DNA from: Nemertoderma westbladi
Taxonomy: Eukaryota; Animalia; Xenacoelomorpha
DNA length: 64,000 nucleotides
Reading direction: 5' to 3'
Assembly: GCA_032718475.1 (NCBI GenBank)
Contig: JAUCBJ010008744.1
Span: 1 to 64,000 of the forward strand
The notes under the pieces were generated by a model. The model did no database searches, was not told the DNA's origin, and saw nothing but the letters and a program-made list of their open reading frames with translations. Both the position numbers and the translations under genes were made by a program. How positions within the stretch are numbered: position 1 is the stretch's first letter; every line of letters starts with the position of its first letter. This document shows positions 12,801 through 36,168 of the stretch, piece by piece.

Positions 12801-13174
12801 TTGATATCTCTGAGATTTGACTTAAAGCATTACTTACTACTAAAACAATCACTGCCGTAACCTATAATATTTAAACTATTACCGACTTTAGAATCAATCT
12901 TACAATTATTTCGCGTCAGTCAGAATGTTGTGCATGGATGTTTTCTGTTCTTCATAACGTATGGATATTAACAATGAATAACTGTATCACTGTAACCTTA
13001 TCCAGAACTTGGGGACACAATGTAAACCATAGATGTTCAAAATTTGAAATTGTTTTAAGTAGCCTATATAGTTCCCCAGATGTAGGATTTAATACAATTC
13101 ATACATACAATACACAAGAATTCATTGCTTACTTCATGAACTAATTTTAACTTAAGCAACTAGGCTAAGTAACT

Positions 13175-13287
13175 ATGGGGGATAGGGAGTTGTGGGGGCG
13201 TAATTTTGTGGACAAGCCGGCACAGCAATCTTAAAAATGCAGCTGCAATGCAGCATGCCGATCCTAGTAGTAATAGTAGTAGTAGTC
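13175..13287 (+). mobile_element. RTE-clade LINE 3' end (~110 bp) with (TAG)n tail
   Basis: Close match to 58894-59007. Confidence 0.85.
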
Positions 13288-13500
13288 GGTTGTCTGCTGT
13301 CGGTTGTCTGCTGTCGGCTGTCTGCTGTCGGTTGTCTGCTGTTGGTCGTCTGCTGTCGGTTGTCTGCTGTCGGTTGTCTGCCGTTGGTCGTCTGTTGTCG
13401 GTTGTCTGCTGTCGGTTGTCTGCTGTCGGTTGTCTGCTGTCGGTTGTTGGTTGTCTGCTGTCGGTTGTCTGCTTGTCGGTTGTTGGTTGTCTGCTGTTGG
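13288..13500. repeat. 14-bp minisatellite (CGGTTGTCTGCTGT)
   Basis: Direct reading; it starts immediately after the RTE (TAG)n tail. Confidence 0.9.
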
Positions 13501-13777
13501 TCTTCTTTTAAGTTAAGTAACTAAGCACTTTTGAAGCTGTAACAAAAACCCAATTAGATCTAACTAGTGCGGTGGCTGGAGCTGCCAATCACCGCCTCCT
13601 AAGAAGAATAGCTATATATTAATAACGAGCGATGCCAATAATTACGTTTATAGCGTTATAACAATTCGATTAAATAAATTTCATACAATATTGAGGCTGG
13701 CAAATTTCTGAAAAAATATTTTTATCATCGTGTGGAGCGAGCCACTACCTTTAGCGTATACACTGTTAGTAGCTAAT

Positions 13778-14040
13778 TGCAGACCATTGCTTTCGCCGTG
13801 AGGACCAGCCAGTGCATAATCTTGTACTTTGGCAGCCTCATGGAGTGAATAAGCATGGTGGACAGCCCATGACTTTCTTGAGACGCATCTTAAAGGACAC
13901 TGGCCTTGAAGATGCGGATGATCTAGCAAATGTCATGGGTGATAGGGAGTTGTGGCGGTGCAATTTTGTCGATAAGCCGGCACAGCATTCTTAAAAATGC
14001 AGCTGCAATGCAGCATGCCGATCCTAGTAGTAGTTAGTAG
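13778..14040 (+). mobile_element. RTE-clade LINE 3' fragment (~260 bp)
   Basis: Near-identical to 58737-59000 (peptide HNLVLWQPHGVNKHGGQPMTFLRRILKDTG...DKPAQHS*), ending in TAG repeats. Confidence 0.92.
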
Positions 14041-14542
14041 ATAGGACAATTAGTTAACCGTCGGTCGTTGTCGTTCTTGTCGTCGAAAAATGTTCGAACG
14101 CAAATAAGTCGGTCAATCTTTGATGAAAAGGAAAACAAACTTGGTACAAATGTAGTCCAAGTCCATAATAAAGGTTATAAATTCTTCTACACACAGACAG
14201 ACTTGTATAGTTGATATATCGACCGCTAGGGGGCGAATAACTAGGTCCACTGGTCCATTGTACCTCTATGGAAAGGCTCATCTATAGCTGTGTGCGCGAA
14301 GGCCCCACGAACGTGTCTAGGTCTACGTGACCTTCTGTAAATATCCGTTTCAGTTATGTGAAATTGTCTCCAAGCCCGAGAGTAAATAACGATATATATA
14401 AATATTGCACTGGAGGTCGCTCATTAAATGTAAAGTTACTTATGTTTAATAAAACAAACCAAATAAAATTGTTATGTAGCGATATAATTTAATTTGCACC
14501 TCAGCAACTTAGAATTGAAAGTAACCTACCTTTATTTATTTC

Positions 14543-15301
14543 CTATGCATTACTGCTCGAATTCTTGTTTGAGTACTTGAGTTTAATGATCTCGGGGTTG
14601 ACACACATAAAGTATCTCGGGTCTACCCCACGTCGTCTAGCAACGGGCCCCTGACTGCCTAGCAACGGGGAAGCCGGGGCGACGCACGCTTTACAGCCGG
14701 GCCGGGGCGTTGTGTGGAGGAAGTGGCGTTGTGGTGGGGGCGTTCTAGTGGGCAGAAAGCGGCGTCGTGGTGCCGTTGGTGAGTCAGTGAGGGGGGTGAT
14801 AAGTCGGCGTGGGAGGGCTGGGGAGTATGTGGTGAGGTGTGGCGAAACGGGGATGGTGGGTGGTGCCGTGTCGATGTGAGGCGACAACCCACTACTGTGT
14901 GACACCGCCCCACTGCTGGGTGACATAGTCTCACTACTGTGTGACACCGCCCCACTACTGTAAGGCGCCATGAGTCTGCGGTGCAGCGGTACGGGATTGA
15001 CTGAGTCGGACTGCGCCGACTGCTTGAGGGACCGACTGAACATCGGCGATGCAAGATGCAGACGGGCGGTGGCGAGGGCACGCCGAGCTGCCACCGGAGT
15101 GGCGGCATTGGAACCAGTTGATATACCGCGCCGCAGTGGAACTGGGGTGGTGATGTTGGAACCAGCTGATATACCACGTCGCAGTGGCACTGGGGTCGCC
15201 ACCCCAGATAGCGAATTGGGTTTGCTGGTCGGCGCTGCAGGAGATTCTTCGCTTTCGTTTGCAGGGTGCGACTTCACATCGGCTTCCATTTCTGTCCACG
15301 C
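14543..15301 (-). CDS. PDE7: PDE7-like gene, coding exon 2 (end of catalytic helix plus Pro/Ser/Arg-rich tail)
   Basis: Acceptor ...TTATTATGTTGATAG|GCG at 15302/15301 (phase 0) is in frame with ORF 15289-14543. Joining gives ...ILANLEVNLQ|AWTEMEADV, which supplies the conserved PDE N..W motif. GC-rich codon-like composition; AATAAA follows the stop. Confidence 0.8.
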   Translation of the reverse strand, partial: AWTEMEADVKSHPANESEESPAAPTSKPNSLSGVATPVPLRRGISAGSNITTPVPLRRGISTGSNAATPVAARRALATARLHLASPMFSRSLKQSAQSDSVNPVPLHRRLMAPYSSGAVSHSSETMSPSSGAVSHSSGLSPHIDTAPPTIPVSPHLTTYSPALPRRLITPLTDSPTAPRRRFLPTRTPPPQRHFLHTTPRPGCKACVAPASPLLGSQGPVARRRGVDPRYFMCVNPEIIKLKYSNKNSSSNA

Positions 15302-15355
15302 CTATCAACATAATAAGTTACCGTAAATATAATTAATTAACCTTACAGCACCGTA

Positions 15356-18300
15356 CACACTACACCAAACAATGAAGGTCCTTGTAGTGTGATTTGTTGC
15401 TACAGGCGTCCTTCATTGTTTGGTGTGGTGTGATTTGTTGCTACATGCGTCCTTCATTGTTTGGTGTAGTGTGATTTGTTGCTACATGCGTCCTTCATTG
15501 TTTGGTGTACTGTGATTTGTTGCTACATGCGTCCTTCATTGTTTGGTGTAGTGTGATTTGTTGCTACATGCGTCCTTAATTGTTTGGTGTAGTGTGATTT
15601 GTTGCTACATGCGTCCTTCATTGTTTGGTGTAGTGTGATTTGTTGCTACATGCGTCCTTAATTGTTTGGTGTAGTGTGATTTGTTGCTACATGCGTCCTT
15701 CATTGTTTGGTGTAGTGTGATTAGTTGCTACATGCGTCCTTCATTGTTTGGTGTAGTGTGATTTGTTGCTACATGCGTCCTTCATTGTTTGGTGTACTGT
15801 GATTTGTTGCTACATGCGTCCTTAATTGTTTGGTGTAGTGTGATTTGTTGCTACATGCGTCCTTAATTGTTTGGTGTAGTGTGATTTGTTGCTACATGCG
15901 TCCTTCATTGTTTGGTGTAGTGTGATTTGTTGCTACATGCGTCTTTCATTGTTTGGTGTAGTACGATTTGTTGCTACATATGACCTTCATTGTTTTATTG
16001 TTTGGTGTAGTGTGATTTGTTGCTACATGCGTCCTTCATTGTTTGGTGTAGTGTGATTTGTTGCTACATGCGTCCTTCATTGTTTGGTGTAGTGTGATTT
16101 GTTGATACATGCGTACTTCATTGTTTGGTGTAGTACGATTTGTTGCTACATATGACCTTCATTGTTTCATTGTTTGGTGTAGTGTGATTTGTTGCTACAT
16201 GCGTCCTTGATTGTTTGGTGTAGTGTGATTTGTTGCTACATGCGTCCTTCATTGTTTGGTGTAGTGTGATTTGTTGCTACATGAGTCCTTCATTGTTTGG
16301 TGTAGTGTGATTTGTTGCTACATGCGTCCTTCATTGTTTGGTGTAGTGTGATTTGTTGCTACATGCGTCCTTCATTGTTTGGTGTAGTGTGATTTGTTGC
16401 TACATGCGTCTTTCATTGTTTGGTGTAGTACGATTTGTTGCTACATGCGTCCTTCATTGATTGGTGTAGTGTGATTTGTTGCTACATGCGTCCTTCATTG
16501 TTTGGTGTAGTGTGATTTGTTGCTACATGCGTCTTTCATTGTTTGGTGTAGTACGATTTGTTGCTACATGCGTCCTTCATTGATTGGTGTAGTGTGATTT
16601 GTTGCTACATGCGTCCTTCATTGTTTGGTGTAGTGTGATTTGTTGCTACATGCGTCTTTCATTGTTTGGTGTAGTACGATTTGTTGCTACATGCGTCCTT
16701 CATTGATTGGTGTAGTGTGATTTGTTGCTACATGCGTCCTTCATTGTTTGGTGTAGTGTGATTTGTTGCTACATGCGTCTTTCATTGTTTGGTGTAGTAC
16801 GATTTGTTGCTACATGCGTCCTTCATTGATTGGTGTAGTGTGATTTGTTGCTACATGCGTCCTTCATTGTTTGGTGTAGTGTGATTTGTTGCTACATGAG
16901 TCCTTCATTGTTTGGTGTAGTGTGATTTGTTGCTACATGCGTCTTTCATTGTTTGGTGTAGTGTGATTTGTTGCTACATGCGTCCTTCATTGTTTGGTGT
17001 AGTGTGATTTGTTGCTACATGCGTCTTTCATTGTTTGGTGTAGTACGATTTGTTGCTACATGCGTCCTTCATTGATTGGTGTAGTGTGATTTGTTGCTAC
17101 ATGCGTCCTTCATTGATTGGTGTAGTGTGATTTGTTGCTACATGCGTCCTTCATTGTTTGGTGTAGTGTGATTTGTTGCTACATGCGTCTTTCATTGTTT
17201 GGTGTAGTACGATTTGTTGCTACATGCGTCCTTCATTGATTGGTGTAGTGTGATTTGTTGCTACATGCGTCCTTCATTGTTTGGTGTAGTGTGATTTGTT
17301 GCTACATGCGTCCTTCATTGTTTGGTGTAGTGTGATTTGTTGCTACATGCGTCCTTCATTGTTTGGTGTAGTGTGATTTGTTGCTACATGCGTCCTTCAT
17401 TGTTTGGTGTAGTGTGATTTGTTGCTACATGCGTCTTTCATTGTTTGGTGTAGTACGATTTGTTGCTACATATGACCTTCATTGTTTTATTGTTTGGTGT
17501 AGTGTGATTTGTTGCTACATGCGTCCTTCATTGTTTGGTGTAGTGTGATTTGTTGCTACATGCGTCCTTCATTGTTTGGTGTAGTGTGATTTGTTGCTAC
17601 ATGCGTCCTTCATTGTTTGGTGTAGTGTGATTTGTTGCTACATGCGTCCTTCATTGTTTGGTGTAGTGTGATTTGTTGCTACATGTGTCCTTCATTGTTT
17701 GGTGTAGTGTGATTTGTTGCTACATGCGTACTTCATTGTTTGGTGTAGTACGATTTGTTGCTACATATGACCTTCATTGTTTCATTGTTTGGTGTAGTGT
17801 GATTTGTTGCTACATGCGTCCTTCATTGTTTGGTGTAGTGTGATTTGTTGCTACATGCGTCCTTCATTGTTTGGTGTAGTGTGATTTGTTGCTACATGCG
17901 TCCTTCATTGTTTGGTGTAGTGTGATTTGTTGCTACATGTGTCCTTCATTGTTTGGTGTAGTGTGATTTGTTGCTACATGCGTCCTTCATTGTTTGGTGT
18001 AGTGTGATTTGTTGCTACATGCGTCCTTCATTGTTTGGTGTAGTGTGATTTGTTGCTACATGCGTCTTTCATTGTTTGGTGTAGTACGATTTGTTGCTAC
18101 ATATGACCTTCATTGTTTTATTGTTTGGTGTAGTGTGATTTGTTGCTACATGCGTCCTTCATTGTTTGGTGTAGTGTGATTTGTTGCTACATGCCTCCTT
18201 AATTGTTTGGTGTAGTGTGATTTGTTGCTACATGCGTCCTTCATTGTTTGGTGTAGTGTGATTTGTTGCTACATGCGTCTTTCATTGTTTGGTGTAGTGT

Positions 18301-21300
18301 GATTTGTTGCTTCATGCGTACTCCATTGTTTGGTGTAGTGCGATTTGTTGCTACATATGACCTTCATTGTTTCATTGTTTGGTGTAGTGTGATTTGTTGC
18401 TACATGCGTCCTTCATTGTTTAGTGTAGTGTGATTTCTTGTTACATGTGTACTTCATTGTTTGGTGTAGTGTGATTTGTTGCTACATGCGTCCTTCATTG
18501 ATTGGTGTAGTGTGATTTGTTGCTACATGCGTCCTTCATTGTTTGGTGTAGTGTGATTTCTTGTTACATGCGTACTTCATTGTTTGGTGTAGTGTGATTT
18601 GTTGCTACATGCGTCCTTCATTGTTTGGTGTAGTGTGATTTGTTGCTACATGCGTCCTTCATTGTTTGGTGTGGTGTGATTTGTTGCTACATGCGTCCTT
18701 CATTGTTTGGTGTAGTGTGATTTGTTGCTACATGCGTCCTTCATTGTTTGGTGTAGTGTGATTTGTTGCTACATGCGTCCTTCATTGTTTGGTGTAGTGT
18801 GATTTGTTGCTACATGCGTCCTTAATTGTTTGGTGTAGTGTGATTTGTTGCTACATGCGTCCTTCATTGTTTGGTGTAGTGTGATTTGTTGCTACATGCG
18901 TCTTTCATTGTTTGGTGTAGTACGATTTGTTGCTACATATGACCTTCATTGTTTTATTGTTTGGTGTAGTGTGATTTGTTGCTACATGCGTCCTTCATTG
19001 TTTGGTGTAGTGTGATTTGTTGCTACATGCGTCCTTCATTGTTTGGTGTAGTGTGATTTGTTGCTACATGCGTACTTCATTGTTTGGTGTAGTACGATTT
19101 GTTGCTACATATGACCTTCATTGTTTCATTGTTTGGTGTAGTGTGATTTGTTGCTACATGCGTCCTTCATTGTTTGGTGTAGTGTGATTTGTTGCTACAT
19201 GCGTCCTTCATTGTTTGGTGTAGTGTGATTTGTTGCTACATGAGTCCTTCATTGTTTGGTGTAGTGTGATTTGTTGCTACATGCGTCCTTCATTGTTTGG
19301 TGTAGTGTGATTTGTTGCTACATGCGTCCTTCATTGTTTGGTGTAGTGTAATTTGTTGCTACATGCGTCCTTCATTGTTTGGTGTAGTGTGATTTGTTGC
19401 TACATGCGTCTTTCATTGTTTGGTGTAGTACGATTTGTTGCTACATATGACCTTCATTGTTTTATTGTTTGGTGTAGTGTGATTTGTTGCTACATGCGTC
19501 CTTCATTGTTTGGTGTAGTGTGATTTGTTGCTACATGCGTCCTTCATTGTTTGGTGTAGTGTGATTTGTTGCTACATGCGTCCTTCATTGTTTGGTGTAG
19601 TGTGATTTGTTGCTACATGCGTCCTTCATTGTTTGGTGTAGTGTGATTTGTTGCTACATGTGTCCTTCATTGTTTGGTGTAGTGTGATTTGTTGCTACAT
19701 GCGTACTTCATTGTTTGGTGTAGTACGATTTGTTGCTACATATGACCTTCATTGTTTCATTGTTTGGTGTAGTGTGATTTGTTGCTACATGCGTCCTTCA
19801 TTGTTTGGTGTAGTGTGATTTGTTGCTACATGCGTCCTTCATTGTTTGGTGTAGTGTGATTTGTTGCTACATGCGTCCTTCATTGTTTGGTGTAGTGTGA
19901 TTTGTTGCTACATGTGTCCTTCATTGTTTGGTGTAGTGTGATTTGTTGCTACATGCGTCCTTCATTGTTTGGTGTAGTGTGATTTGTTGCTACATGCGTC
20001 CTTCATTGTTTGGTGTAGTGTGATTTGTTGCTACATGCGTCTTTCATTGTTTGGTGTAGTACGATTTGTTGCTACATATGACCTTCATTGTTTTATTGTT
20101 TGGTGTAGTGTGATTTGTTGCTACATGCGTCCTTCATTGTTTGGTGTAGTGTGATTTGTTGCTACATGCGTCCTTCATTGTTTGGTGTAGTGTGATTTGT
20201 TGCTACATGCGTACTTCATTGTTTGGTGTAGTACGATTTGTTGCTACATATGACCTTCATTTATTCATTGTTTGGTGTAGTGTGATTTGTTGCTACATGC
20301 GTCCTTCATTGTTTGGTGTAGTGTGATTTCTTGTTACATGCGTACTTCATTGTTTGGTGTAGTGTGATTTGTTGCTACATGCGTCCTTCATTGATTGGTG
20401 TAGTGTGATTTGTTGCTACATGCGTCCTTCATTGTTTGGTGTAGTGTGATTTCTTGTTACATGCGTACTTCATTGTTTGGTGTAGTGTGATTTGTTGCTA
20501 CATGCGTCCTTCATTGTTTGGTGTAGTGTGATTTGTTGCTACATGCGTCATTCATTGTTTGGTGTAGTACGATTTGTTGCTACATATGACCTTCATTGTT
20601 TCATTGTTTGGTGTAGTGTGATTTGTTGCTACATGCGTCCTTCATTGATTGGTGTAGTGTGATTTGTTGCTACATGCGTCCTTCATTGTTTGGTGTAGTG
20701 TGATTTCTTGTTACATGCGTACTTCATTGTTTGGTGTAGTGTGATTTGTTGCTACATGCGTCCTTCATTGTTTGGTGTAGTGTGATTTGTTGCTACATGC
20801 GTCATTCATTGTTTGGTGTAGTACGATTTGTTGCTACATATGACCTTCAGTGTTTCATTGTTTGGTGTAGTGTGGTTTGTTGCTACATGCGTCCTTCATT
20901 GTTTGGTGTAGTGTGATTTGTTGCTACATGCGTCCTTCATTGTTTGGTGTAGTGATTTGTTGCTACATGCGTCCTTCATTGTTTGGTGTAGTGTGATTTG
21001 TTGCTACATGCGTCCTTCATTGTTTGGTGTAGTGTGATTTGTTGCTACATGCGTCCTTCATTGTTTGGTGTAGTGATTTGTTGCTACATGCGTCCTTCAT
21101 TGTTTGGTGTAGTGTGATTTGTTGCTACATGCGTCCTTCATTGTTTGGTGTAGTGTGATTTGTTGCTACATGCATCCTTCATTGTTTGGTGTAGTGTGAT
21201 TTGTTGCTACATGCGTCCTTCATTGTTTGGTGTAGTGTGATTTGTTGCTACATGCGTCCTTCATTGTTTGGTGTAGTGTGATTTGTTGCTACATGCGTCC

Positions 21301-24300
21301 TTCATTGTTTGGTGTAGTACGATTTGTTGCTACATATGACCTTCATTGTTTCATTGTTTGGTGTAGTGTGATTTGTTGCTACATGCGTCCTTCATTGTTT
21401 GGTGTAGTGTGATTTCTTGTTACATGCGTCCTTCATTGTTTGGTGTAGTGTGATTTGTTGCTACATGCGTCCTTCATTGTTTGGTGTAGTGTGATTTGTT
21501 GCTACATGCGTCCTTCATTGTTTGGTGTAGTGTGATTTCTTGTTACATGCGCCCTTCATTGTTTGGTGTAGTGTGATTTGTTGCTACATGCGTCCTTCAT
21601 TGTTTGTTGAAGTACGATTTGTTGCTACATGCGTCCTTCATTGTTTGGTGTAGTGTGATTTGTTGCTACGTGCGTCCTTCATTGTTTGGTGTAGTGTGAT
21701 TTGTTGCTACATGCGTCCTTTATTGTTTGTTGTAGTGCGATTTGTTGCTACATGCGTCCTTCATTGTTTGGTGTAGTGTGATTTGTAGCTACATGCGTCC
21801 TTCATTGTTTGTTGTAGTGTGATTTGTTGCTACATGCGTCCTTCATTGTTTGGTGTAGTGTGATTTGTTGCTACATGCGTCCTTCATTGTTTGGTGTAGT
21901 GTGATTTGTTGCTACATGCGTCCTTCATTGTTTGTTGTAGTGCGATTTGTTGCTACATGCGTCCTTCATTGTTTGGTGTAGTGTGATTTGTTGCTACATG
22001 CGTCCTTCATTGTTTGTTGTAGTGCGATTTGTTGCTACATGCGTCCTTCATTGTTTGGTGTAGTGTGATTTGTTGCTACATGCGTCCCTCATTGTTTGGT
22101 GTAGTGCGATTTGTTGCTACATGCGTCCTTCATTGTTTGTTGTAGTGTGATTTGTTGCTACATGCGTCCTTCGTTGTTTGGTGTAGTGTGATTTGTTGCT
22201 ACATGCGTCCTTCATTGTTTGGTGTAGTGTGATTTCTTGTTACATGCGTACTTCATTGTTTGGTGTAGTGTGATTTGTTGCTACATGCGTCCTTCATTGT
22301 TTGGTGTAGTGTGATTTGTTGCTACATGCGTCATTCATTGTTTGGTGTAGTACGATTTGTTGCTACATATGACCTTCAGTGTTTCATTGTTTGGTGTAGT
22401 GTGATTTCTTTCTACATGCGTCCTTCATTGTTTGGTGTAGTGTGATTTGTTGCTACATGCGTCCTTCATTGTTTGGTGTAGTGATTTGTTGCTACATGCG
22501 TCCTTCATTGTTTGGTGTAGTGTGATTTGTTGCTACATGCGTCCTTCATTGTTTGGTGTAGTGTGATTTGTTGCTACATGCGTCCTTCATTGTTTGGTGT
22601 AGTGATTTGTTGCTACATGCGTCCTTCATTGTTTGGTGTAGTACGATTTGTTGCTACATATGACCTTCATTGTTTCATTGTTTGGTGTAGTGCGATTTGT
22701 TGCTACATGCGTCCTTCATTGATTGGTGTAGTGTGATTTGTTGCTACATGCGTCCTTCATTGTTTGGTGTAGTGTGATTTCTTGTTACATGCGTACTTCA
22801 TTGTTTGGTGTAGTGTGATTTGTTGCTACATGCGTCCTTCATTGTTTGGTGTAGTGTGATTTGTTGCTACATGCGTCATTCATTGTTTGGTGTAGTACGA
22901 TTTGTTGCTACATATGACCTTCATTGTTTCATTGTTTGGTGTAGTGTGATTTGTTGCTACATGCGTCCTTCATTGATTGGTGTAGTGTGATTTGTTGCTA
23001 CATGCATCCTTCATTGTTTGGTGTAGTGTGATTTGTTGCTACATGCGTCCTTCATTGTTTGGTGTAGTGATTTGTTGCTACATGCGTCCTTCATTGTTTG
23101 GTGTAGTGTGATTTGTTGCTACATGCGTCCTTCATTGTTTGGTGTAGTGTGATTTGTTGCTACATGCGTCCTTCATTGTTTGGTGTAGTGATTTGTTGCT
23201 ACATGCGTCCTTCATTGTTTGGTGTAGTACGATTTGTTGCTACATATGACCTTCATTGTTTCATTGTTTAGTGTAGTGCGATTTGTTGCTACATGCGTCC
23301 TTCATTGATTGGTGTAGTGTGATTTGTTGCTACATGCGTCCTTCATTGTTTGGTGTAGTGTGATTTCTTGTTGCATGCGTACTTCATTGTTTGGTGTAGT
23401 GTGATTTGTTGCTACATGCGTCCTTCATTGTTTGGTGTAGTGTGATTTGTTGCTACATGCGTCATTCATTGTTTGGTGTAGTACGATTTGTTGCTACATA
23501 TGACCTTCAGTGTTTCATTGTTTGGTGTAGTGTGATTTCTTTCTACATGCGTCCTTCATTGTTTGGTGTAGTGTGATTTGTTGCTACATGCGTCCTTCAT
23601 TGTTTGGTGTAGTGATTTGTTGCTACATGCGTCCTTCATTGTTTGGTGTAGTGTGATTTGTTGCTACATGCGTCCTTCATTGTTTGGTGTAGTGTGATTT
23701 GTTGCTACATGCGTCCTTCATTGTTTGGTGTAGTGATTTGTTGCTACATGCGTCCTTCATTGTTTGGTGTAGTGTGATTTGTTGCTACATATGACCTTCA
23801 TTGTTTCATTGTTTGGTGTAGTGTGATTTGTTGCTACATGCATCCTTCATTGATTGGTGTAGTGCGATTTGTTGATACATGCGTCCTTCATTGTTTGGTG
23901 TAATGTGATTTGTTGCTACATGCGTCCTTCATTGATTGGTGTAGTGTGATTTGTTGCTACATGCGTCCTTCATTGTTTGGTGTAGTGTGATTTCTTGTTA
24001 CATGCGTACTTCATTGTTTGGTGTAGTGTGATTTGTTGCTACATGCGTCCTTCATTGTTTGGTGTAGTGTGATTTGTTGCTACATGCGTCCTTCATTGTT
24101 TGGTGTAGTGTGATTTGTTGCTACATGCGTCATTCATTGTTTGGTGTAGTACGATTTGTTGCTACATATGATCTTCATTGTTTCATTGTTTGGTGTAGTG
24201 TGATTTGTTGCTACATGCGTCCTTCATTGATTGGTGTAGTGTGATTTGTTGCTACATGCATCCTTCATTGTTTGGTGTAGTGTGATTTGTTGCTACATGC

Positions 24301-27300
24301 GTCCTTCATTGTTTGGTGTAGTGTGATTTGTTGCTACATGCGTCCTTCATTGTTTGGTGTAGTGTGATTTGTTGCTACATGCGTCCTTCATTGTTTGGTG
24401 TAGTACGATTTGTTGCTACATATGACCTTCATTGTTTGGTGTAGTGTGATTTGTTGCTACATGCGTCCTTCATTGTTTGGTGTAGTGTGATTTGTTGCTA
24501 CATGCGTCTTTCATTGTTTGGTGTAGTACGATTTGTTGCTACATATGACCTTCATTGTTTTATTGTTTGGTGTAGTGTGATTTGTTGCTACATGCGTCCT
24601 TCATTGTTTGGTGTACTGTGATTTGTTGCTACATGCGTCCTTCATTGTTTGGTGTAGTGTGATTTGTTGCTACATGCGTCCTTAATTGTTTGGTGTAGTG
24701 TGATTTGTTGCTACATGCGTCCTTCATTGTTTGGTGTACTGTGATTTGTTGCTACATGCGTCCTTCATTGATTGGTGTAGTGTGATTTGTTGCTACATGT
24801 GTACTTCATTGTTTGGTGTAGTGTGATTTCTTGTTACATGCGTACTTCATTGTTTGGTGTAGTGTGATTTGTTGCTACATGCGTCCTTCATTGTTTGGTG
24901 TAGTGTGATTTGTTGCTACATGCGTCCTTCATTGTTTGGTGTGGTGTGATTTGTTGCTACATGCGTCCTTCATTGTTTGGTGTAGTGTGATTTGTTGCTA
25001 CATGCGTCCTTCATTGTTTGGTGTACTGTGATTTGTTGCTACATGCGTCCTTCATTGTTTGGTGTAGTGTGATTTGTTGCTACATGCGTCCTTAATTGTT
25101 TGGTGTAGTGTGATTTGTTGCTACATGCGTCCTTCATTGTTTGGTGTAGTGTGATTTGTTGCTACATGCGTCCTTCATTGTTTGGTGTACTGTGATTTGT
25201 TGCTACATGCGTCCTTCATTGTTTGGTGTAGTGTGATTTGTTGCTACATGCGTCATTCATTATTTGGTGTAGTACGATTTGTTGCTACATATGACCTTCA
25301 TTGTTTCATTGTTTGGTGTAGTGTGATTTGTTGCTACATGCGTCCTTCATTGTTTGGTGTAGTGTGATTTGTTGCTACATGCGTCCTTCATTGTTTGGTG
25401 TAGTGTGATTTGTTGCTACATGAGTCCTTCATTGTTTGGTGTAGTGTGATTTGTTGCTACATGCGTCCTTCATTGTTTGGTGTAGTGTGATTTGTTGCTA
25501 CATGCGTCCTTCATTGTTTGGTGTAGTGTGATTTGTTGCTACATGCGTCCTTCATTGTTTGGTGTAGTGTGATTTGTTGCTACATGCGTCTTTCATTGTT
25601 TGGTGTAGTACGATTTGTTGCTACATATGACCTTCATTGTTTTATTGTTTGGTGTAGTGTGATTTGTTGCTACATGCGTCCTTCATTGTTTGGTGTAGTG
25701 TGATTTGTTGCTACATGCGTCCTTCATTGTTTGGTGTAGTGTGATTTGTTGCTACATGCGTCCTTCATTGTTTGGTGTAGTGTGATTTGTTGCTACATGC
25801 GTCCTTCATTGTTTGGTGTAGTGTGATTTGTTGCTACATGTGTCCTTCATTGTTTGGTGTAGTGTGATTTGTTGCTACATGCGTACTTCATTGTTTGGTG
25901 TAGTACGATTTGTTGCTACATATGACCTTCATTGTTTCATTGTTTGGTGTAGTGTGATTTGTTGCTACATGCGTCCTTCATTGTTTGGTGTAGTGTGATT
26001 TGTTGCTACATGCGTCCTTCATTGTTTGGTGTAGTGTGATTTGTTGCTACATGCGTCCTTCATTGTTTGGTGTAGTGTGATTTGTTGCTACATGTGTCCT
26101 TCATTGTTTGGTGTAGTGTGATTTGTTGCTACATGCGTCCTTCATTGTTTGGTGTAGTGTGATTTGTTGCTACATGCGTCCTTCATTGTTTGGTGTAGTG
26201 TGATTTGTTGCTACATGCGTCTTTCATTGTTTGGTGTAGTACGATTTGTTGCTACATATGACCTTCATTGTTTTATTGTTTGGTGTAGTGTGATTTGTTG
26301 CTACATGCGTCCTTCATTGTTTGGTGTAGTGTGATTTGTTGCTACATGCGTCCTTCATTGTTTGGTGTAGTGTGATTTGTTGCTACATGCGTACTTTATT
26401 GTTTGGTGTAGTACGATTTGTTGCTACATATGACCTTCATTGATTCATTGTTTGGTGTAGTGTGATTTGTTGCTACATGCGTCCTTCATTATTTGGTGTA
26501 GTGTGATTTCTTGTTACATGCGTACTTCATTGTTTGGTGTAGTGTGATTTGTTGCTACATGCGTCCTTCATTGATTGGTGTAGTGTGATTTGTTGCTACA
26601 TGCGTCCTTCATTGTTTGGTGTAGTGTGATTTCTTGTTACATGCGTACTTCATTGTTTGGTGTAGTGTGATTTGTTGCTACATGCGTCCTTCATTGTTTG
26701 GTGTAGTGTGATTTGTTGCTACATGCGTCATTCATTGTTTGGTGTAGTACGATTTGTTGCTACATATGACCTTCATTGTTTCATTGTTTGGTGTAGTGTG
26801 ATTTGTTGCTACATGCGTCCTTCATTGATTGGTGTAGTGTGATTTGTTGCTACATGCGTCCTTCATTGTTTGGTGTAGTGTGATTTCTTGTTACATGCGT
26901 ACTTCATTGTTTGGTGTAGTGTGATTTGTTGCTACATGCGTCCTTCATTGTTTGGTGTAGTGTGATTTGTTGCTACATGCGTCATTCATTGTTTGGTGTA
27001 GTACGATTTGTTGCTACATATGACCTTCAGTGTTTCATTGTTTGGTGTAGTGTGGTTTGTTGCTACATGCGTCCTTCATTGTTTGGTGTAGTGTGATTTG
27101 TTGCTACATGCGTCCTTCATTGTTTGGTGTAGTGATTTGTTGCTACATGCGTCCTTCATTGTTTGGTGTAGTGTGATTTGTTGCTACATGCGTCCTTCAT
27201 TGTTTGGTGTAGTGTGATTTGTTGCTACATATGACCTTCATTGTTTTATTGTTTGGTGTAGTGTGATTTGTTGCTACATGCGTCCTTCATTGTTTGGTGT

Positions 27301-30300
27301 ACTGTGATTTGTTGCTACATGCGTCCTTCATTGTTTGGTGTAGTGTGATTTGTTGCTACATGCGTCATTCATTGTTTGGTGTAGTACGATTTGTTGCTAC
27401 ATATGACCTTCAGTGTTTCATTGTTTGTTGTAGTGTGGTTTGTTGCTACATGCGTCCTTCATTGTTTGGTGTAGTGTGATTTGTTGCTACATGCGTCCTT
27501 CATTGTTTGGTGTAGTGATTTGTTGCTACATGCGTCCTTCATTGTTTGGTGTAGTGTGATTTGTTGCTACATGCGTCCTTCATTGTTTGGTGTAGTGTGA
27601 TTTGTTGCTACATGCGTCCTTCATTGTTTGGTGTAGTGATTTGTTGCTACATGCGTCCTTCATTGTTTGGTGTAGTGTGATTTGTTGCTACATGCGTCCT
27701 TCATTGTTTGGTGTAGTGTGATTTGTTGCTACATGCATCCTTCATTGTTTGGTGTAGTGTGATTTGTTGCTACATGCGTCCTTCATTGTTTGGTGTAGTG
27801 TGATTTGTTGCTACATGCGTCCTTCATTGTTTGGTGTAGTGTGATTTGTTGCTACATGCGTCCTTCATTGTTTGGTGTAGTACGATTTGTTGCTACATAT
27901 GACCTTCATTGTTTCATTGTTTGGTGTAGTGTGATTTGTTGCTACATGCGTCCTTCATTGTTTGGTGTAGTGTGATTTCTTGTTACATGCGTCCTTCATT
28001 GTTTGGTGTAGTGTGATTTGTTGCTACATGCGTCCTTCATTGTTTGGTGTAGTGTGATTTGTTGCTACATGCGTCCTTCATTGTTTGGTGTAGTGTGATT
28101 TCTTGTTACATGCGCCCTTCATTGTTTGGTGTAGTGTGATTTGTTGCTACATGCGTCCTTCATTGTTTGTTGAAGTACGATTTGTTGCTACATGCGTCCT
28201 TCATTGTTTGGTGTAGTGTGATTTGTTGCTACGTGCGTCCTTCATTGTTTGGTGTAGTGTGATTTGTTGCTACATGCGTCCTTTATTGTTTGTTGTAGTG
28301 CGATTTGTTGCTACATGCGTCCTTCATTGTTTGGTGTAGTGTGATTTGTAGCTACATGCGTCCTTCATTGTTTGTTGTAGTGTGATTTGTTGCTACATGC
28401 GTCCTTCATTGTTTGGTGTAGTGTGATTTGTTGCTACATGCGTCCTTCATTGTTTGGTGTAGTGTGATTTGTTGCTACATGCGTCCTTCATTGTTTGTTG
28501 TAGTGCGATTTGTTGCTACATGCGTCCTTCATTGTTTGGTGTAGTGTGATTTGTTGCTACATGCGTCCTTCATTGTTTGTTGTAGTGCGATTTGTTGCTA
28601 CATGCGTCCTTCATTGTTTGGTGTAGTGTGATTTGTTGCTACATGCGTCCCTCATTGTTTGGTGTAGTGCGATTTGTTGCTACATGCGTCCTTCATTGTT
28701 TGTTGTAGTGTGATTTGTTGCTACATGCGTCCTTCGTTGTTTGGTGTAGTGTGATTTGTTGCTACATGCGTCCTTCATTGTTTGGTGTAGTGTGATTTCT
28801 TGTTACATGCGTACTTCATTGTTTGGTGTAGTGTGATTTGTTGCTACATGCGTCCTTCATTGTTTGGTGTAGTGTGATTTGTTGCTACATGCGTCATTCA
28901 TTGTTTGGTGTAGTACGATTTGTTGCTACATATGACCTTCAGTGTTTCATTGTTTGGTGTAGTGTGATTTCTTTCTACATGCGTCCTTCATTGTTTGGTG
29001 TAGTGTGATTTGTTGCTACATGCGTCCTTCATTGTTTGGTGTAGTGATTTGTTGCTACATGCGTCCTTCATTGTTTGGTGTAGTGTGATTTGTTGCTACA
29101 TGCGTCCTTCATTGTTTGGTGTAGTGTGATTTGTTGCTACATGCGTCCTTCATTGTTTGGTGTAGTGATTTGTTGCTACATGCGTCCTTCATTGTTTGGT
29201 GTAGTACGATTTGTTGCTACATATGACCTTCATTGTTTCATTGTTTGGTGTAGTGCGATTTGTTGCTACATGCGTCCTTCATTGATTGGTGTAGTGTGAT
29301 TTGTTGCTACATGCGTCCTTCATTGTTTGGTGTAGTGTGATTTCTTGTTACATGCGTACTTCATTGTTTGGTGTAGTGTGATTTGTTGCTACATGCGTCC
29401 TTCATTGTTTGGTGTAGTGTGATTTGTTGCTACATGCGTCATTCATTGTTTGGTGTAGTACGATTTGTTGCTACATATGACCTTCATTGTTTCATTGTTT
29501 GGTGTAGTGTGATTTGTTGCTACATGCGTCCTTCATTGATTGGTGTAGTGTGATTTGTTGCTACATGCATCCTTCATTGTTTGGTGTAGTGTGATTTGTT
29601 GCTACATGCGTCCTTCATTGTTTGGTGTAGTGATTTGTTGCTACATGCGTCCTTCATTGTTTGGTGTAGTGTGATTTGTTGCTACATGCGTCCTTCATTG
29701 TTTGGTGTAGTGTGATTTGTTGCTACATGCGTCCTTCATTGTTTGGTGTAGTGATTTGTTGCTACATGCGTCCTTCATTGTTTGGTGTAGTACGATTTGT
29801 TGCTACATATGACCTTCATTGTTTCATTGTTTAGTGTAGTGCGATTTGTTGCTACATGCGTCCTTCATTGATTGGTGTAGTGTGATTTGTTGCTACATGC
29901 GTCCTTCATTGTTTGGTGTAGTGTGATTTCTTGTTGCATGCGTACTTCATTGTTTGGTGTAGTGTGATTTGTTGCTACATGCGTCCTTCATTGTTTGGTG
30001 TAGTGTGATTTGTTGCTACATGCGTCATTCATTGTTTGGTGTAGTACGATTTGTTGCTACATATGACCTTCAGTGTTTCATTGTTTGGTGTAGTGTGATT
30101 TCTTTCTACATGCGTCCTTCATTGTTTGGTGTAGTGTGATTTGTTGCTACATGCGTCCTTCATTGTTTGGTGTAGTGATTTGTTGCTACATGCGTCCTTC
30201 ATTGTTTGGTGTAGTGTGATTTGTTGCTACATGCGTCCTTCATTGTTTGGTGTAGTGTGATTTGTTGCTACATGCGTCCTTCATTGTTTGGTGTAGTGAT

Positions 30301-33300
30301 TTGTTGCTACATGCGTCCTTCATTGTTTGGTGTAGTGTGATTTGTTGCTACATATGACCTTCATTGTTTCATTGTTTGGTGTAGTGTGATTTGTTGCTAC
30401 ATGCATCCTTCATTGATTGGTGTAGTGCGATTTGTTGATACATGCGTCCTTCATTGTTTGGTGTAATGTGATTTGTTGCTACATGCGTCCTTCATTGATT
30501 GGTGTAGTGTGATTTGTTGCTACATGCGTCCTTCATTGTTTGGTGTAGTGTGATTTCTTGTTACATGCGTACTTCATTGTTTGGTGTAGTGTGATTTGTT
30601 GCTACATGCGTCCTTCATTGTTTGGTGTAGTGTGATTTGTTGCTACATGCGTCCTTCATTGTTTGGTGTAGTGTGATTTGTTGCTACATGCGTCATTCAT
30701 TGTTTGGTGTAGTACGATTTGTTGCTACATATGATCTTCATTGTTTCATTGTTTGGTGTAGTGTGATTTGTTGCTACATGCGTCCTTCATTGATTGGTGT
30801 AGTGTGATTTGTTGCTACATGCATCCTTCATTGTTTGGTGTAGTGTGATTTGTTGCTACATGCGTCCTTCATTGTTTGGTGTAGTGTGATTTGTTGCTAC
30901 ATGCGTCCTTCATTGTTTGGTGTAGTGTGATTTGTTGCTACATGCGTCCTTCATTGTTTGGTGTAGTACGATTTGTTGCTACATATGACCTTCATTGTTT
31001 CATTGTTTGGTGTAGTGTGATTTGTTGCTACATGCGTCCTTCATTGTTTGGTGTAGTGTGATTTCTTGTTACATGCGTCCTTCATTGTTTGGTGTAGTGT
31101 GATTTGTTGCTACATGCGTCCTTCATTGTTTGGTGTAGTGTGATTTGTTGCTACATGCGTCCTTCATTGTTTGGTGTAGTGTGATTTCTTGTTACATGCG
31201 TCCTTCATTGTTTGGTGTAGTGTGATTTGTTGCTACATGCGTCCTTCATTGTTTGTTGAAGTACGATTTGTTGCTACATGCGTCATTCATTGTTTGGTGT
31301 AGTACGATTTGTTGCTACATATGATCTTCATTGTTTCATTGTTTGGTGTAGTGTGATTTGTTGCTACATGCGTCCTTCATTGATTGGTGTAGTGTGATTT
31401 GTTGCTACATGCGTCATTCATTGTTTGGTGTAGTACGATTTGTTGCTACATATGATCTTCATTGTTTCATTGTTTGGTGTAGTGTGATTTGTTGCTACAT
31501 GCGTCCTTCATTGATTGGTGTAGTGTGATTTGTTGCTACATGCATCCTTCATTGTTTGGTGTAGTGTGATTTGTTGCTACATGCGTCCTTCATTGTTTGG
31601 TGTAGTGTGATTTGTTGCTACATGCGTCCTTCATTGTTTGGTGTAGTGTGATTTGTTGCTACATGCGTCCTTCATTGTTTGGTGTAGTACGATTTGTTGC
31701 TACATATGACCTTCATTGTTTCATTGTTTGGTGTAGTGTGATTTGTTGCTACATGCGTCCTTCATTGTTTGGTGTAGTGTGATTTCTTGTTACATGCGTC
31801 CTTCATTGTTTGGTGTAGTGTGATTTGTTGCTACATGCGTCCTTCATTGTTTGGTGTAGTGTGATTTGTTGCTACATGCGTCCTTCATTGTTTGGTGTAG
31901 TGTGATTTCTTGTTACATGCGTCCTTCATTGTTTGGTGTAGTGTGATTTGTTGCTACATGCGTCCTTCATTGTTTGTTGAAGTACGATTTGTTGCTACAT
32001 GCGTCCTTCATTGTTTGGTGTAGTGTGATTTGTTGCTACTTGCGTCCTTCATTGTTTGGTGTAGTGTGATTTGTTGCTACATGCGTCCTTTATTGTTTGT
32101 TGTAGTGCGATTTGTTGCTACATGCGTCCTTCATTGTTTGGTGTAGTGTGATTTGTAGCTACATGCGTCCTTCATTGTTTGTTGTAGTGTGATTTGTTGC
32201 TACATGCGTCCTTCATTGTTTGGTGTAGTGTGATTTGTTGCTACATGCGTCCTTCATTGTTTGGTGTAGTGTGATTTGTTGCTACATGCGTCCTTCATTG
32301 TTTGTTGTAGTGCGATTTGTTGCTACATGCGCCCTTCATTGTTTGGTGTAGTGTGATTTGTTGCTACATGCGTCCTTCATTGTTTGTTGTAGTGCGATTT
32401 GTTGCTACATGCGTCCTTCATTGTTTGGTGTAGTGTGATTTGTTGCTACATGCGTCCTTCATTGTTTGGTGTAGTGCGATTTGTTGCTACATGCGTCCTT
32501 CATTGTTTGTTGTAGTGTGATTTGTTGCTACATGCGTCCTTCATTGTTTGGTGCAGTGTGATTTGTTGCTACATGCGTCCTTCATTGTTTGTTGTAGTGC
32601 GATTTGTTGCTACATGCGTCCTACATTGTTTGGTGTACTGTGATTTGTTGCTACATGCGTCCTTCATTGTTTGGTGTAGTGTGATTTGTTGCTACATGCG
32701 TCCTTCATTGTTTGGTGAACTGTGATTTGTAGCTACATGCGTCCTTCATTGTTTGTTGTAGTGTGATTTGTTGCTACATGCGTCCTTCATTGTTTGGTGT
32801 AGTGTGATTTGTTGCTACATGCGTCCTTCATTGTTTGGTGTAGTGTGATTTGTTGCTACATGCGTCCTTCATTGTTTGTTGTAGTGCGATTTGTTGCTAC
32901 ATGCGTCCTTCATTGTTTGGTGTACTGTGATTTGTAGCTACATGCGTCCTTCATTGTTTGTTGTAGTGTGATTTGTTGCTACATGCGTTCTTCATTGTTT
33001 GGTGTAGTGTGATTTGTTGCTACATGCGTCCTTCATTGTTTGGTGTAGTGTGATTTGTTGCTACATGCGTCCTTCATTGTTTGTTGTAGTGCGATTTGTT
33101 GCTACATGCGTCCTTCATTGTTTGGTGTAGTGTGATTTGTTGCTACATGCGTCCTTCATTGTTTGGTGTAGTGTGATTTGTTGCTACATGCGTCCTTCAT
33201 TGTTTGGTGTAGTGTAATTTGTTGCTACACGCGTCCTTCATTGTTTGGTGTAGTGTGATTTGTTGCTACATGTGTCCTTCATTGTTTGGTGTAGTGTGAT

Positions 33301-34503
33301 TTGTTGCTACATGCGTCCTTCATTGTTTGTTGTAGTGTGATTTGTTGCTACATGCGTCCTTCATTGTTTGGTGTAGTGTGATTTGTTGCTACATATGACC
33401 TTCATTGTTTCATTGTTTGGTGTAGTGTGATTTGTTGCTACATGCATCCTTCATTGATTGGTGTAGTGCGATTTGTTGATACATGCGTCCTTCATTGTTT
33501 GGTGTAATGTGATTTGTTGCTACATGCATCCTTCATTATTTTGTGTAGTGTGATTTGTTGCTACATGCGTCCTTGTAGTGTGATTTGTTGCTACATGCGT
33601 CCTTCATTGTTTGGTGTAGTGTGATTTGTTGCTACATGCGTCCTTCATTGTTTGGTGTAATGTGATTTGTTGCTACATTCGTCCTTCATTGTTTGGTGTA
33701 GTGTGATTTGTTGCTACATATGACCTTCATTGTTTCATTGTTTGGTGTAGTGTGATTTGTTGCTACATGCGTCCTTCATTGTTTGGTGTAGTGTGATTTG
33801 TTGCTACATGCGTCCTTCATTGTTTGGTGTAGTGTGATTTGTTGCTACATGCGTCCGTAACACCAAAGAATGAAGGACGCATGTAGAAAGAAATCACACT
33901 ACACCAAACAATGAAGGACGCATGTAGCAACAAATCACACTACACCAAACAATGAAACAATGAAGGTCATATGTAGCAACAAATCACACTACACCAAACA
34001 ATGAAGGACGCATGTAGCAACAAATCACACTACACCAAACAATGAAACAATGAAGGTCATATGTAGCAAGAAATCACACTACACCAAACAATGAAGGACG
34101 CATGTAGCAACAAATCACACTACACCAAACAATGAAGGACGCATGTAGCAAGAAATCACACCACACCAAACAATGAAGGATGCATGTAGCAACAAATCAC
34201 ACTACACCAAACAATGAAGGACGCATGTAGAAAGAAATCACACTACACCAAACAATGAAGGATGCATGTAGCAACAAATCACACTACACCAAACAATGAA
34301 GGACGCATGTAGCAAGAAATCACACTACACCAAACAATGAAGGACGCATGTAGCAACAAATCACACTACACCAAACAATGAAGGACGCATGTAGCAAAAA
34401 ATCACACTACACCAAACAATGAAGGTCATATGTAGCAACAAATCACACTACACCAAACAATGAAGGACGCATATAGCAACAAATCGCACTACACCAAACA
34501 ATG
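15356..34503. repeat. 41-bp satellite (GTAGTGTGATTTGTTGCTACATGCGTCCTTCATTGTTTGGT), ~19.1 kb, intronic; orientation flips at ~15381 and ~33857
   Basis: Forward array 15383-33856 (~450 units, with 39- and 49-bp variants), inverted arm 33860-34503, and a short inverted stub 15356-15380. Confidence 0.97.
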
Positions 34504-34698
34504 GAGTAACGATTAACAAAATCTCCTAAGGTTCACTGAACCAGCTACAACCAATATTTAATGGTCTCTCTTAAGGGTTACATATCCACAAAGCACAAAC
34601 ATAACGCAGTTTGTAACTTATTGAACCGAGTTAAACAAAAGAAAACAAGGCAGACGAGAATCAACTACCGGTACCGGTAGTCGGTTTATCGGACTCAC

Positions 34699-36168
34699 CT
34701 GAAGGTTGACTTCCAGATTGGCCAGTATCTCGTTACTCAGATCTGATTTAAAAAGCCGCGCCCATTGCGTGTAGAGCGGCCGGGCGACGAACTTAATGAA
34801 ACCGCTCTGTATCTTCGATATTGTCTGAGCATATCGGTCGCCTATCGTAGACACGGGTAACCCAAGTTTTCGTTCCATATCACCCTGTCGGAAGAACTCC
34901 TCCGTGACCCGTGTGCTCCAGAGTTTGCTAATCTCCCAGGTACGTCCCGTGTTTGCGATATCGGAGCACTTGAGCGCGATCTGCAGCACGAAGTGCCGGT
35001 CACCCTCGACGTCCATCCGGAGTGAGTCGGCGCGGCGTTTCAACTGCTCCGTGAACTCCGACTGCCTCGTCATATCGGTGGCGAGGATAAGCGAGCGGAA
35101 GAGCCGGAAGAACGAGTCCCACTCCTCCTGTGGTAGATGGGCTAGCAATCCGGTCTCCCGGAAGAGAGACAACGACACCCCGCAGTGGTGGTTCTCGAGA
35201 AGAGAACTCGCGTACAGCTCGCAGAGGAAGTTCTTAGTGCTGATGAGGAAGGATTGGTTGGTACCCGGGTGTTCGATGTCGTGGCAATACGCGGCGAGAA
35301 TGGCAGCGAGCAAGTCCAAGTGGGTCGCCTCCTTCCGGATTTCTAACTCATTTACGAAGCAGACCATCGCTTGGGTGACGTCAGCAGCGTGGGTCGCGTT
35401 GTGGTACGGGTTGGTGTCACGGTAACCAGCTGAGACGCGAGTAGCGAACGATAACAGCCGCAGCGGGTCCAACCGGAAGTGACGCGTCAACTGGAAGTGG
35501 TCGAGAAGGTGTACGAGAAGGTTGACGGTGCCCTGACCGCCGAGCATGTGGTTGAGTTGGATGACATCAAACTCCCAACGCAGGGAAGAGATAGCTAGGT
35601 AGGAGGCGGCCCCCGCGCGGCCAGCGTACACCGAGTCCAACAGACAGTCGGCGGCCCGGGATTGGTCCGAGCGGTATCGTTGGCGCGTCGGCGAACGTTT
35701 TGCCAGGGATTTAAACCGGGATTTAACCACCGGAGTCGGGTGTTTCTCCGTATCTTCCGTTCGCAACTCCGGCACCACTGGCTCATCAGTTCCCGGGCCT
35801 ACCGGTAGAGGGTGAAGTAGTTCCTGCACGTCGGTTTCCAACCCCGTCGATTCCTCGGTCAGTTCCGATTCCGAATGGTCGGTGTCGGATTCTACGGAAC
35901 CCGTTTGGTGATACCGAACATCGGCTAACATGCGCACATACAACGCGTCGTTGTCAGATTGGTCGAAGGATACCCCGCCGCGGCGTTGTCTGCGAGGGTG
36001 CGGGATATTTTGGAACATTTCGGTGCTACTAGAGAAGGAGATGGCACAGCGACGGCCCAACACATTCTTTGGTACCGCGCGATCCAATGGAAGCACTGGC
36101 AATCCATTATAAATCTCCGCTGCCATCGTAATAACCTCACTGATATCGGGTTTCCGTCGAAATACCAT
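34699..36168 (-). CDS. PDE7: PDE7-like high-affinity cAMP phosphodiesterase, coding exon 1 (N-terminal region plus PDEase_I domain)
   Basis: N-terminus LPVLPLDRAVPKNVLGRRCAISFSSS...RRGGVSFDQSDNDALYVRMLADVR closely resembles vertebrate PDE7A1. Catalytic motifs YHNATHAADV, HDIEHPG, LLENHH, ILATDM, KCSDIAN, EEFFRQGD and IQSGFI are present. Consensus donor CAG|GTGAGT at 34699/34698 follows 490 codons. The true start may be the Met at 36126. Confidence 0.92.

What the first reader, a model, noticed from the sequence alone, without database searches (positions are those of the whole stretch)
15302..34698. 19.4-kb satellite intron with an inverted arm next to the 5' splice site: possible fold-back RNA bridge for splicing
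Seen: the PDE7 intron (GT at 34698, AG at 15302, phase 0) is ~99% one 41-bp satellite. On the pre-mRNA, ~195 nt after the donor come ~640 nt of satellite in one orientation (34503-33860), then ~18.5 kb in the opposite orientation that ends only ~80 nt before the acceptor. Established: complementary repeats at intron ends can aid splicing (e.g. AC/GT repeat pairs in fish introns), and satellite-filled giant introns occur in Drosophila Y fertility genes. Inference: the short arm can pair in any register, including with the acceptor-proximal units, looping out the array and bringing the splice sites within ~300 nt. It would also be a long dsRNA source for ADAR or Dicer. A neutral inversion is equally possible.
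Basis: partly seen in the sequence, partly recalled or inferred. Interest (0 to 1): 0.85.

Follow-up and report, generated by a model that had tools for sequence, protein, structure and literature searches.

The report
Inverted satellite block inside PDE7 intron
A spliced 19.4-kb intron of an animal PDE7 gene is 99% one 41-base repeat whose long middle part lies flipped relative to both ends; its RNA is predicted to fold into a local hairpin of about 600 base pairs, which is likely a harmless by-product of a DNA inversion rather than a bridge between the splice sites.

Summary
The intron (34698-15302, minus strand) is 98.7% one 41-bp satellite. A contig of run X3 joins the two exons at the claimed sites. 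So the 18.5-kb middle is the inverted piece. Flipping it back restores unit register at both junctions (about 1-3% by chance), the mark of a two-break inversion inside an older array. Contigs of two samples show both flank orientations, so a second switch must exist; its exact place rests on the assembly alone. The bridge idea gets no support. The arm has no special affinity for acceptor-proximal units (rank 22 of 89 by alignment, 28 of 119 by energy), and hundreds of registers compete. It likely folds on the units transcribed right after it, shortening the intron by about 1.3 kb. Earlier unchecked notes of this scan report many 10-63 kb satellite introns elsewhere in this genome, none noted as inverted. 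A side lead: the flip removed acceptor-like AGs from the part that later grew. Verdict: real, likely neutral.

The parts
34699..36168 (-). PDE7 coding exon 1 (490 codons; N-terminal part and whole catalytic domain in one exon)
   Evidence: Pfam PDEase_I E 2.9e-71 at residues 255-477; nearly all named hits among the 120 listed are PDE7A-like, about 40% identity
34504..34698 (-). 5' splice site (GTGAGT from 34698) and 195-nt unique intron start
   Evidence: flank joined to satellite in arm orientation in X1 and X2 contigs (loose ends)
33860..34503 (-). 644-bp arm, about 15.5 units; G/U-rich on the pre-mRNA; inferred un-inverted remnant; 14 acceptor-like YAG sites
33855..33862 (.). inner inversion junction: 3 filler bases (33857-33859) between two break ends
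   Evidence: seen in the assembly only, no bridging contig listed
15383..33856 (-). 18,474-bp long array, about 440 units (41-bp, with 49- and 39-bp variants); A/C-rich on the pre-mRNA; the inverted segment
17875..31000 (.). recent ~6.56-kb tandem duplication inside the long array (3572 bp exactly identical)
15377..15385 (.). outer inversion junction: 4 filler bases (15379-15382)
   Evidence: spanned by contigs in X1 (0 differences over 1041 nt), X2 (1 difference) and X4
15356..15378 (-).
   Evidence: -39.7 kcal/mol for 15356-15433
15302..15355 (-). 54-nt unique intron end with the acceptor AG
   Evidence: used in X3 contig
14509..15301 (-). PDE7 exon 2: 252 codons (conserved W, low-complexity tail), stop at 14543-14545, start of 3' UTR
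   Evidence: no Pfam family
12127..14508 (-). 3' UTR intron with two alternative joins (14509 to 12126; 14460 to 12137)
   Evidence: loose ends of X3 mapped

Best explanation
A locus-specific 41-bp satellite fills this spliced PDE7 intron, and its 18.5-kb middle lies inverted against both ends, likely because two DNA breaks inside an older one-way array were rejoined in flipped order; the resulting fold-back RNA is likely a neutral local hairpin. Steps: (1) shown: intron, splice, three-part orientation, in-register reciprocal junctions with 2- and 3-bp overlaps and 4- and 3-bp fillers. (2) inferred: two breaks repaired by end joining. (3) inferred: the inverted part kept growing afterwards, including a recent 6.5-kb duplication. 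(4) predicted: on the nascent RNA the arm pairs with the units made right after it (about 600 bp, short loop), removing about 1.3 of 19.4 kb. (5) inferred: the spliceosome finds the two sites as in the genome's other giant satellite introns, with no need of a bridge.
For: Flip-back restores register at both junctions: unit phases 27|26 and 13|11; chance 0.0095 for overlaps of 0-3 at both, 0.029 within +-3. Outer junction spanned in X1, X2, X4, and donor-side orientation seen in X1, X2; X1 and X4 are one sample, and X1 and X2 are each flagged as possible sources of this DNA, but they are different samples and X2 differs from the window at 14658. Arm vs long array: acceptor-end window ranks 22 of 89 by alignment, 10 of 45 and 28 of 119 by duplex energy plus loop cost; the best registers are interior. 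MFE of the first 1499 intron nt pairs 602 arm nt with the adjacent array. The 14 full arm units lack 11 variants common in the long array, while 0 of 426 overlapping 14-unit windows of the long array lack them all: separate histories since the flip. About 45 min per 100 kb of transcription (PMC2773006 passage) puts the acceptor-end units roughly 8 min after the local partner.
Against: At equilibrium the local and acceptor-end registers are equal in my calculation (-1053.9 vs -1054.5 kcal/mol), so the preference for the local hairpin rests on folding kinetics (inference, partly recalled knowledge of strand-displacement rates), not on energy. PMC4691745 (Discussion) notes that annealing proteins can rearrange RNA structures. 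The exact place of the inner junction and the arm length rest on the assembly. Neutrality was not tested. The in-register test was noticed first and scored afterwards. The comparison with other introns of the genome rests on unchecked notes.
Confidence: 0.66

Rival explanations
1. Decoy removal: the inversion mattered for splicing by silencing false acceptors. In the old orientation every unit carries a U-rich YAG like the true acceptor; the flip turned most into purine-rich non-acceptors, local hairpins would hide the 15 left, and this would let the flipped part grow to 18.5 kb.
For: 14 of 14 arm YAG sites and the stub's one have at least 7 pyrimidines in the 12 upstream bases (true acceptor: 8); 0 of 424 long-array YAG sites do; 14 of 14 arm sites are paired in the local MFE. 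The flipped part is about 29 times the arm's length and appears to have grown after the flip.
Against: Crude score, one locus. Masking follows automatically from any inversion. Earlier unchecked notes report introns of this genome with 200-780 copies of true acceptors that still splice. The size at the time of inversion is unknown.
Confidence: 0.12
2. Functional dsRNA source: the ~600-bp hairpin would be diced or edited, and small RNAs against this likely locus-private satellite would tune chromatin or expression of the PDE7 gene itself.
For: About 620 pairs in any register. Contig depth of consensus words in X2 (3128, 3471) over unique contigs (12.3, 17.4) gives 180-282 copies against 205 and 244 in the window: a rough hint that the satellite is mostly confined here. 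A satellite contig is present in X3 (depth 905).
Against: No direct sign of a function; the X3 satellite contig has no strand and may be nascent RNA or DNA carry-over; the tool warns that depth is no copy number; introns are normally degraded after splicing (general knowledge).
Confidence: 0.08
3. Assembly error in the interior: both flank orientations are real, but the inner switch lies elsewhere or the array length is wrong (collapsed or doubled blocks, or a fold-back chimera).
For: The 3572-bp exact duplication could be an assembly doubling. Depth ratios in sample S1 suggest far fewer copies: X4 32-50 against 223 in the window, X1 about 58-67.
Against: The inner junction is the in-register reciprocal of an outer junction seen in contigs, which a chimera would not be expected to give. 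An X1 contig starts exactly at 33860 and carries the arm-private base at 33868, as a branch at the junction would give. X2 depth fits the window's length. The S1 shortfall may be a shorter allele or library bias.
Confidence: 0.08
4. One reading: the arm pairs with acceptor-proximal units, loops out the array and brings the splice sites within about 276 nt, helping splicing as in fish (AC)m-(GT)n introns.
For: Geometry allows it (276 nt left unpaired). The acceptor-end register is as stable as the local one. Precedent shown in zebrafish (PMC4691745) and proposed for large vertebrate introns (PMC2773006).
Against: About 425 competing registers; crude Boltzmann share of the 7 of 119 windows near the acceptor is 6e-17; no sequence tailoring; the local partner is made first; fish repeats lie within 50-200 nt of each site, in introns of ordinary size, AC at 5' and GT at 3', the reverse of the base polarity here; the arm is a remnant of the old array.
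Confidence: 0.06

Closest known systems
Macro-dyad symmetries in Tribolium satellite arrays (PMC13081366, passages)
   Same: Monomer orientation switches inside a tandem array, giving kilobase inverted sub-arrays able to form hairpins.
   Different: There: abundant pericentromeric satellites with thousands of conserved inversion sites. Here: one likely locus-private array in a spliced intron, two reciprocal junctions, very unequal arms; the word 'intron' does not occur in that paper's main text.
Staggered-break inversions repaired by end joining (PMC1885836, passages)
   Same: Two breaks, inverted middle, sequence duplicated in inverted orientation at both ends.
   Different: Duplications here are only 2 and 3 bp and could equally be chance microhomology; both breaks lie inside one satellite; filler bases present.
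(AC)m-(GT)n structured introns of fish (PMC4691745, passages and Discussion)
   Same: Complementary repeats within one intron; a long duplex is possible across it.
   Different: Dinucleotide repeats confined to the intron ends, AC at 5' and GT at 3', ordinary intron lengths, function shown. Here a 41-bp unit, the partner fills 18.5 kb, base polarity reversed, function untested.
Satellite-filled giant introns of Drosophila Y genes (PMC6508621, PMC11207136; search listing and abstract starts only)
   Same: Intron almost wholly satellite, yet spliced.
   Different: Hundreds of kb to Mb there (abstract starts); simple repeats (recalled). Here 19 kb with a 41-bp unit and an inversion.
'Mirage' minisatellites built from exon-intron junctions (PMC3087553, listing only; lead from earlier notes)
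   Same: Locus-specific tandem array in an intron; reported by earlier notes as common in this genome.
   Different: The unit shows no similarity to either splice junction.

Membership tests
Bridged (AC)m-(GT)n-type structured intron | Complementary repeats at both intron ends, within about 200 nt of the splice sites | tested here: met
   Arm starts 195 nt after the donor; long array ends 81 nt before the acceptor
Bridged (AC)m-(GT)n-type structured intron | AC dinucleotide repeat at 5', GT repeat at 3' | tested here: not met
   41-bp unit; G/U-rich at 5', A/C-rich at 3'
Bridged (AC)m-(GT)n-type structured intron | End-to-end pairing is the favoured structure | tested here: not met
   Acceptor-end register ranks 28 of 119; best registers interior; prediction only
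Bridged (AC)m-(GT)n-type structured intron | Splicing depends on the pairing | not testable with these tools
   Needs minigene or allele comparison
Two-break inversion inside a tandem array | Both outer ends share one orientation, middle opposite | tested here: met
   flank orientations in contigs
Two-break inversion inside a tandem array | Re-inversion restores continuity at both junctions | tested here: met
   phases 27|26 and 13|11; chance about 0.01-0.03
Two-break inversion inside a tandem array | Both junctions seen in data other than the assembly | tested here: inconclusive
   Outer junction spanned; inner one not bridged by a listed contig
Two-break inversion inside a tandem array | Un-inverted allele or outgroup exists | not testable with these tools
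   No genome held
Fold-back duplication or chimera (arm mirrors the adjacent DNA) | Arm is a near-exact mirror copy of the neighbouring 640 bp | tested here: not met
   Adjacent window ranks 38 of 89; unit variants differ; longest exact arm match to the long array found is 115 bp
Mirage minisatellite | Unit derived from the host exon-intron junction | tested here: not met
   6 of 6 flank regions score no better than shuffled units; 91-298 of 300 shuffles reach the score
Recursively spliced intron | AG|GTRAG ratchet points in the intron | tested here: not met
   0 AGGTRAG; 44 weak AGGT sites
PDE7 | PDEase_I domain, PDE7-type N-terminus, best hits PDE7 | tested here: met
   no other PDE families were included as outgroup in the tree

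The most novel reading that the evidence does not exclude
The orientation of an intronic satellite is under splicing selection: an inversion flipped about 425 acceptor-like units into an inert strand and hid the remaining 15 in local hairpins, which licensed a 30-fold expansion and turned every PDE7 pre-mRNA into a ~600-bp hairpin RNA aimed at a satellite private to its own gene.
Probability: 0.15. Interest if true: 0.7.

Novelty: new member of a known kind. Interest (0 to 1): 0.3.

Why it matters
As a neutral inversion it matters little: arrays invert and introns tolerate repeats. Its value is as a natural test case. Both breakpoints are readable to the base, array length may differ between samples, and the genome seems to hold many giant satellite introns without noted inversions as controls. 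That makes it directly testable whether long intronic dsRNA or repeat orientation affects splicing of giant introns. If the bridge or the decoy reading were true, it would give a general rule for how satellite-filled introns stay spliceable.

Tried and rejected
No whole genome is held, so the survey of inversions in intronic versus intergenic arrays was not possible; within the window 0 of 9 other tandem arrays tested show inverted 13-mers within 1.5 kb, too few to count. No RNA holder listed among 8 runs; no raw or long reads offered, so editing, strand, small RNAs and long-read spanning were untestable. Inner junction: none of the 24 listed pieces bridges 33856-33860 (72 more not shown), and X2, X3, X4 have no cover at about 33860-33884; a hole in contigs proves nothing. 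Read-through of the donor as an intronless 516-codon gene: rejected as the main form (loses the conserved W; spliced contig). Mirage origin rejected. Mirror-image fold-back rejected. Recursive ratchet points not found. Tree of exon 1 with 16 of the 120 listed homologs: very long branch (2.4), no placement, so the clade is not established here. Look-ups of earlier findings: nothing near this place, nothing holding all bridge/inversion words; two searches showed 8 of 66 and 8 of 15 fitting notes. Paper searches listed no description of an inverted satellite block acting as a splice bridge; the library lacks most subscription papers, and I read no supplements. Whether this intron position is shared by other PDE7 genes was not tested.

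Full report
Observation. The window is animal DNA with many tandem arrays. On the minus strand, 36168-34699 encodes 490 residues with a full PDEase_I domain; a homolog search gave 680 hits at E 1e-30 or better among 7994 scored candidates, and nearly all named ones among the 120 listed are PDE7A-like at about 40% identity. The frame meets a GTGAGT donor at 34698. Seven of 7 aligned PDE7s carry N-x-x-x-W at this point; read-through lacks the W. Of 18 AG sites downstream that would restore it, 15301 opens 252 codons and the next best 63. The intron is 19,397 nt, 98.7% one 41-bp satellite.

Splicing. The run search listed 8 runs, 4 of which hold the exon-1 stretch. In X3 a 2443-nt contig covers 14509-15303 and goes on with letters that lie at 34701 onward, which is the claimed junction given two bases that fit either side. 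X3 is labelled DNA by guess. I infer it is RNA because it also shows two alternative joins from GT donors in the 3' UTR; a processed DNA copy is the less likely alternative.

What the inversion is. An orientation map shows three runs, not two: a 23-bp stub at 15356-15378 and the arm at 33860-34503 share one orientation, and 15383-33856 is opposite. The stub ends at unit phase 27 and the far end of the long array, read in reverse, starts at phase 26; the near end stops at phase 13 and the arm starts at phase 11. Flipping the middle back therefore rebuilds a head-to-tail array at both junctions, with overlaps of 2 and 3 bp and fillers of 4 and 3 bp. Chance is about 0.01 to 0.03, scored after I noticed it. 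This is the pattern expected from two breaks rejoined in inverted order (compare PMC1885836, passages; that the fillers point to end joining is general knowledge). The arm is thus a remnant of the older array. It is no mirror copy of its neighbour (rank 38 of 89).

Is it real? Contigs of X1 (0 differences in 1041 nt), X2 (1 difference, at 14658) and X4 span exon 2, the stub and the outer junction. Contigs of X1 and X2 join the donor-side flank to satellite in the arm's orientation. With both exons on one strand, a second switch must lie between. X1 and X4 are one sample; X1 and X2 are each flagged as possible sources of this DNA but are different samples. The exact place of the inner switch rests on the assembly; one X1 contig begins exactly at 33860 and carries the arm-private base at 33868, which fits a branch there but does not prove it. 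Depth ratios, a rough hint only, give 180-282 consensus copies in X2 against 205-244 in the window, but only 32-50 in X4 and about 58-67 in X1: a shorter allele or library bias.

History of the array. The long array has 439 full segments with 1.35 changes per unit from the commonest unit; the arm's 14 have 1.5. The two share several variants, but the arm's full units lack 11 that are common in the long array, and 0 of 426 overlapping 14-unit windows lack them all (one of them does occur in the arm's last partial unit). A 6.56-kb tandem duplication with 3572 identical bp lies inside. I infer that much growth followed the inversion. The unit is not derived from either splice junction.

Does the arm bridge? 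It can pair anywhere: about 620 pairs, mean -1040 kcal/mol, SD 17.5, over 119 windows after a loop penalty. The acceptor-end register (-1054.5, rank 28) and the local one (-1053.9, rank 29) are equal, and interior registers reach -1081 (a coarser run gave ranks 10 and 11 of 45). So energy favours neither the bridge nor the local hairpin. By alignment the acceptor end ranks 22 of 89: no tailoring. The first 1499 nt fold with 602 arm bases paired to the adjacent units. These units are made seconds after the arm, the acceptor-end units about 8 minutes later at the rate quoted in PMC2773006 (passage). Leaving a 600-bp helix without a free toehold is slow (recalled). The likely product is a local hairpin that leaves about 18.1 kb of intron. 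In the fish precedent, repeats sit only near the sites, AC at 5' and GT at 3', in introns of ordinary length (PMC4691745, passages and Discussion); that paper also notes that proteins can rearrange structures, which keeps the bridge possible.

A side lead. In the arm's orientation each unit carries a YAG with 8 pyrimidines in the 12 bases upstream on average, like the true acceptor; 14 of 14 arm sites and the stub's site pass 7 of 12, 0 of 424 long-array sites do, and all 14 arm sites are paired in the local fold. The flip thus removed acceptor look-alikes from the part that is now large. Against this, earlier unchecked notes describe introns of this genome with hundreds of true splice-site copies that still splice.

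Context and novelty. Those notes report satellite introns of about 10-63 kb in several genes of this genome, and one suggests a nemertodermatid worm; my tree shows only a very long branch. A genome paper on that clade (PMC10565955, six passages) reports variable intron sizes and about 60% repeats, and its main text names satellites only in a reference. Orientation switches inside satellite arrays are described in Tribolium (PMC13081366, passages), satellite-filled introns in Drosophila (listing only), and stems from opposed repeats in large introns were proposed in PMC2773006. My eight searches listed no inverted satellite block acting as a splice bridge.

Verdict. Real feature, new member of a known kind. 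Neutral two-break inversion with a local hairpin 0.66; decoy removal 0.12; functional dsRNA 0.08; interior misassembly 0.08; splice bridge 0.06. Interest 0.3.

Noticed in passing
window 12126-14509: 3' UTR intron of PDE7 with two joins in X3: 14460 to 12137 (GT-AG) and 14509 to 12126 (GT, but the acceptor reads TG in the window). The 14459 donor lies about 84 nt past the stop codon, possibly a decay-sensitive form. The intron holds a 14-bp array at 13285-13501.
   Followed up: partly
window 34699-36168: The whole conserved part of PDE7 lies in one exon, whereas vertebrate PDE7A has many introns (recalled): intron loss or a retrocopy that replaced the parent, in which case the satellite intron may be a gained one.
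   Followed up: no
window 15302-15360: A donor-like GTAAG at 15346 lies 45 nt before the true acceptor and 13 nt after the stub's acceptor-like AG: a possible hidden micro-exon or two-step route; the X3 contig shows the direct join.
   Followed up: partly
window 14658: C in the window and X1, T in X2 and X3: a polymorphism in exon 2.
   Followed up: no
window 367-2436, 43523-45879, 46154-49151, 57835-58953: Reverse-transcriptase-like frames by eye: LINE-type pieces and a broken LTR-retrotransposon-like pol; not scanned against families.
   Followed up: no
window 50838-52028 (-): Single-exon sulfotransferase (Pfam Sulfotransfer_1, E 7.2e-09).
   Followed up: partly
window 62578-63123 (+): Open frame with three LDL-receptor class A repeats, followed by a 32-bp array running off the window end.
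   Followed up: partly
window 2933-3700, 4122-6241, 41359-42780, 55164-56464, 63474-64000: Five more sizeable tandem arrays (17, 44, 123, 34, 32 bp), each confined to its place in the window and without inversion.
   Followed up: partly
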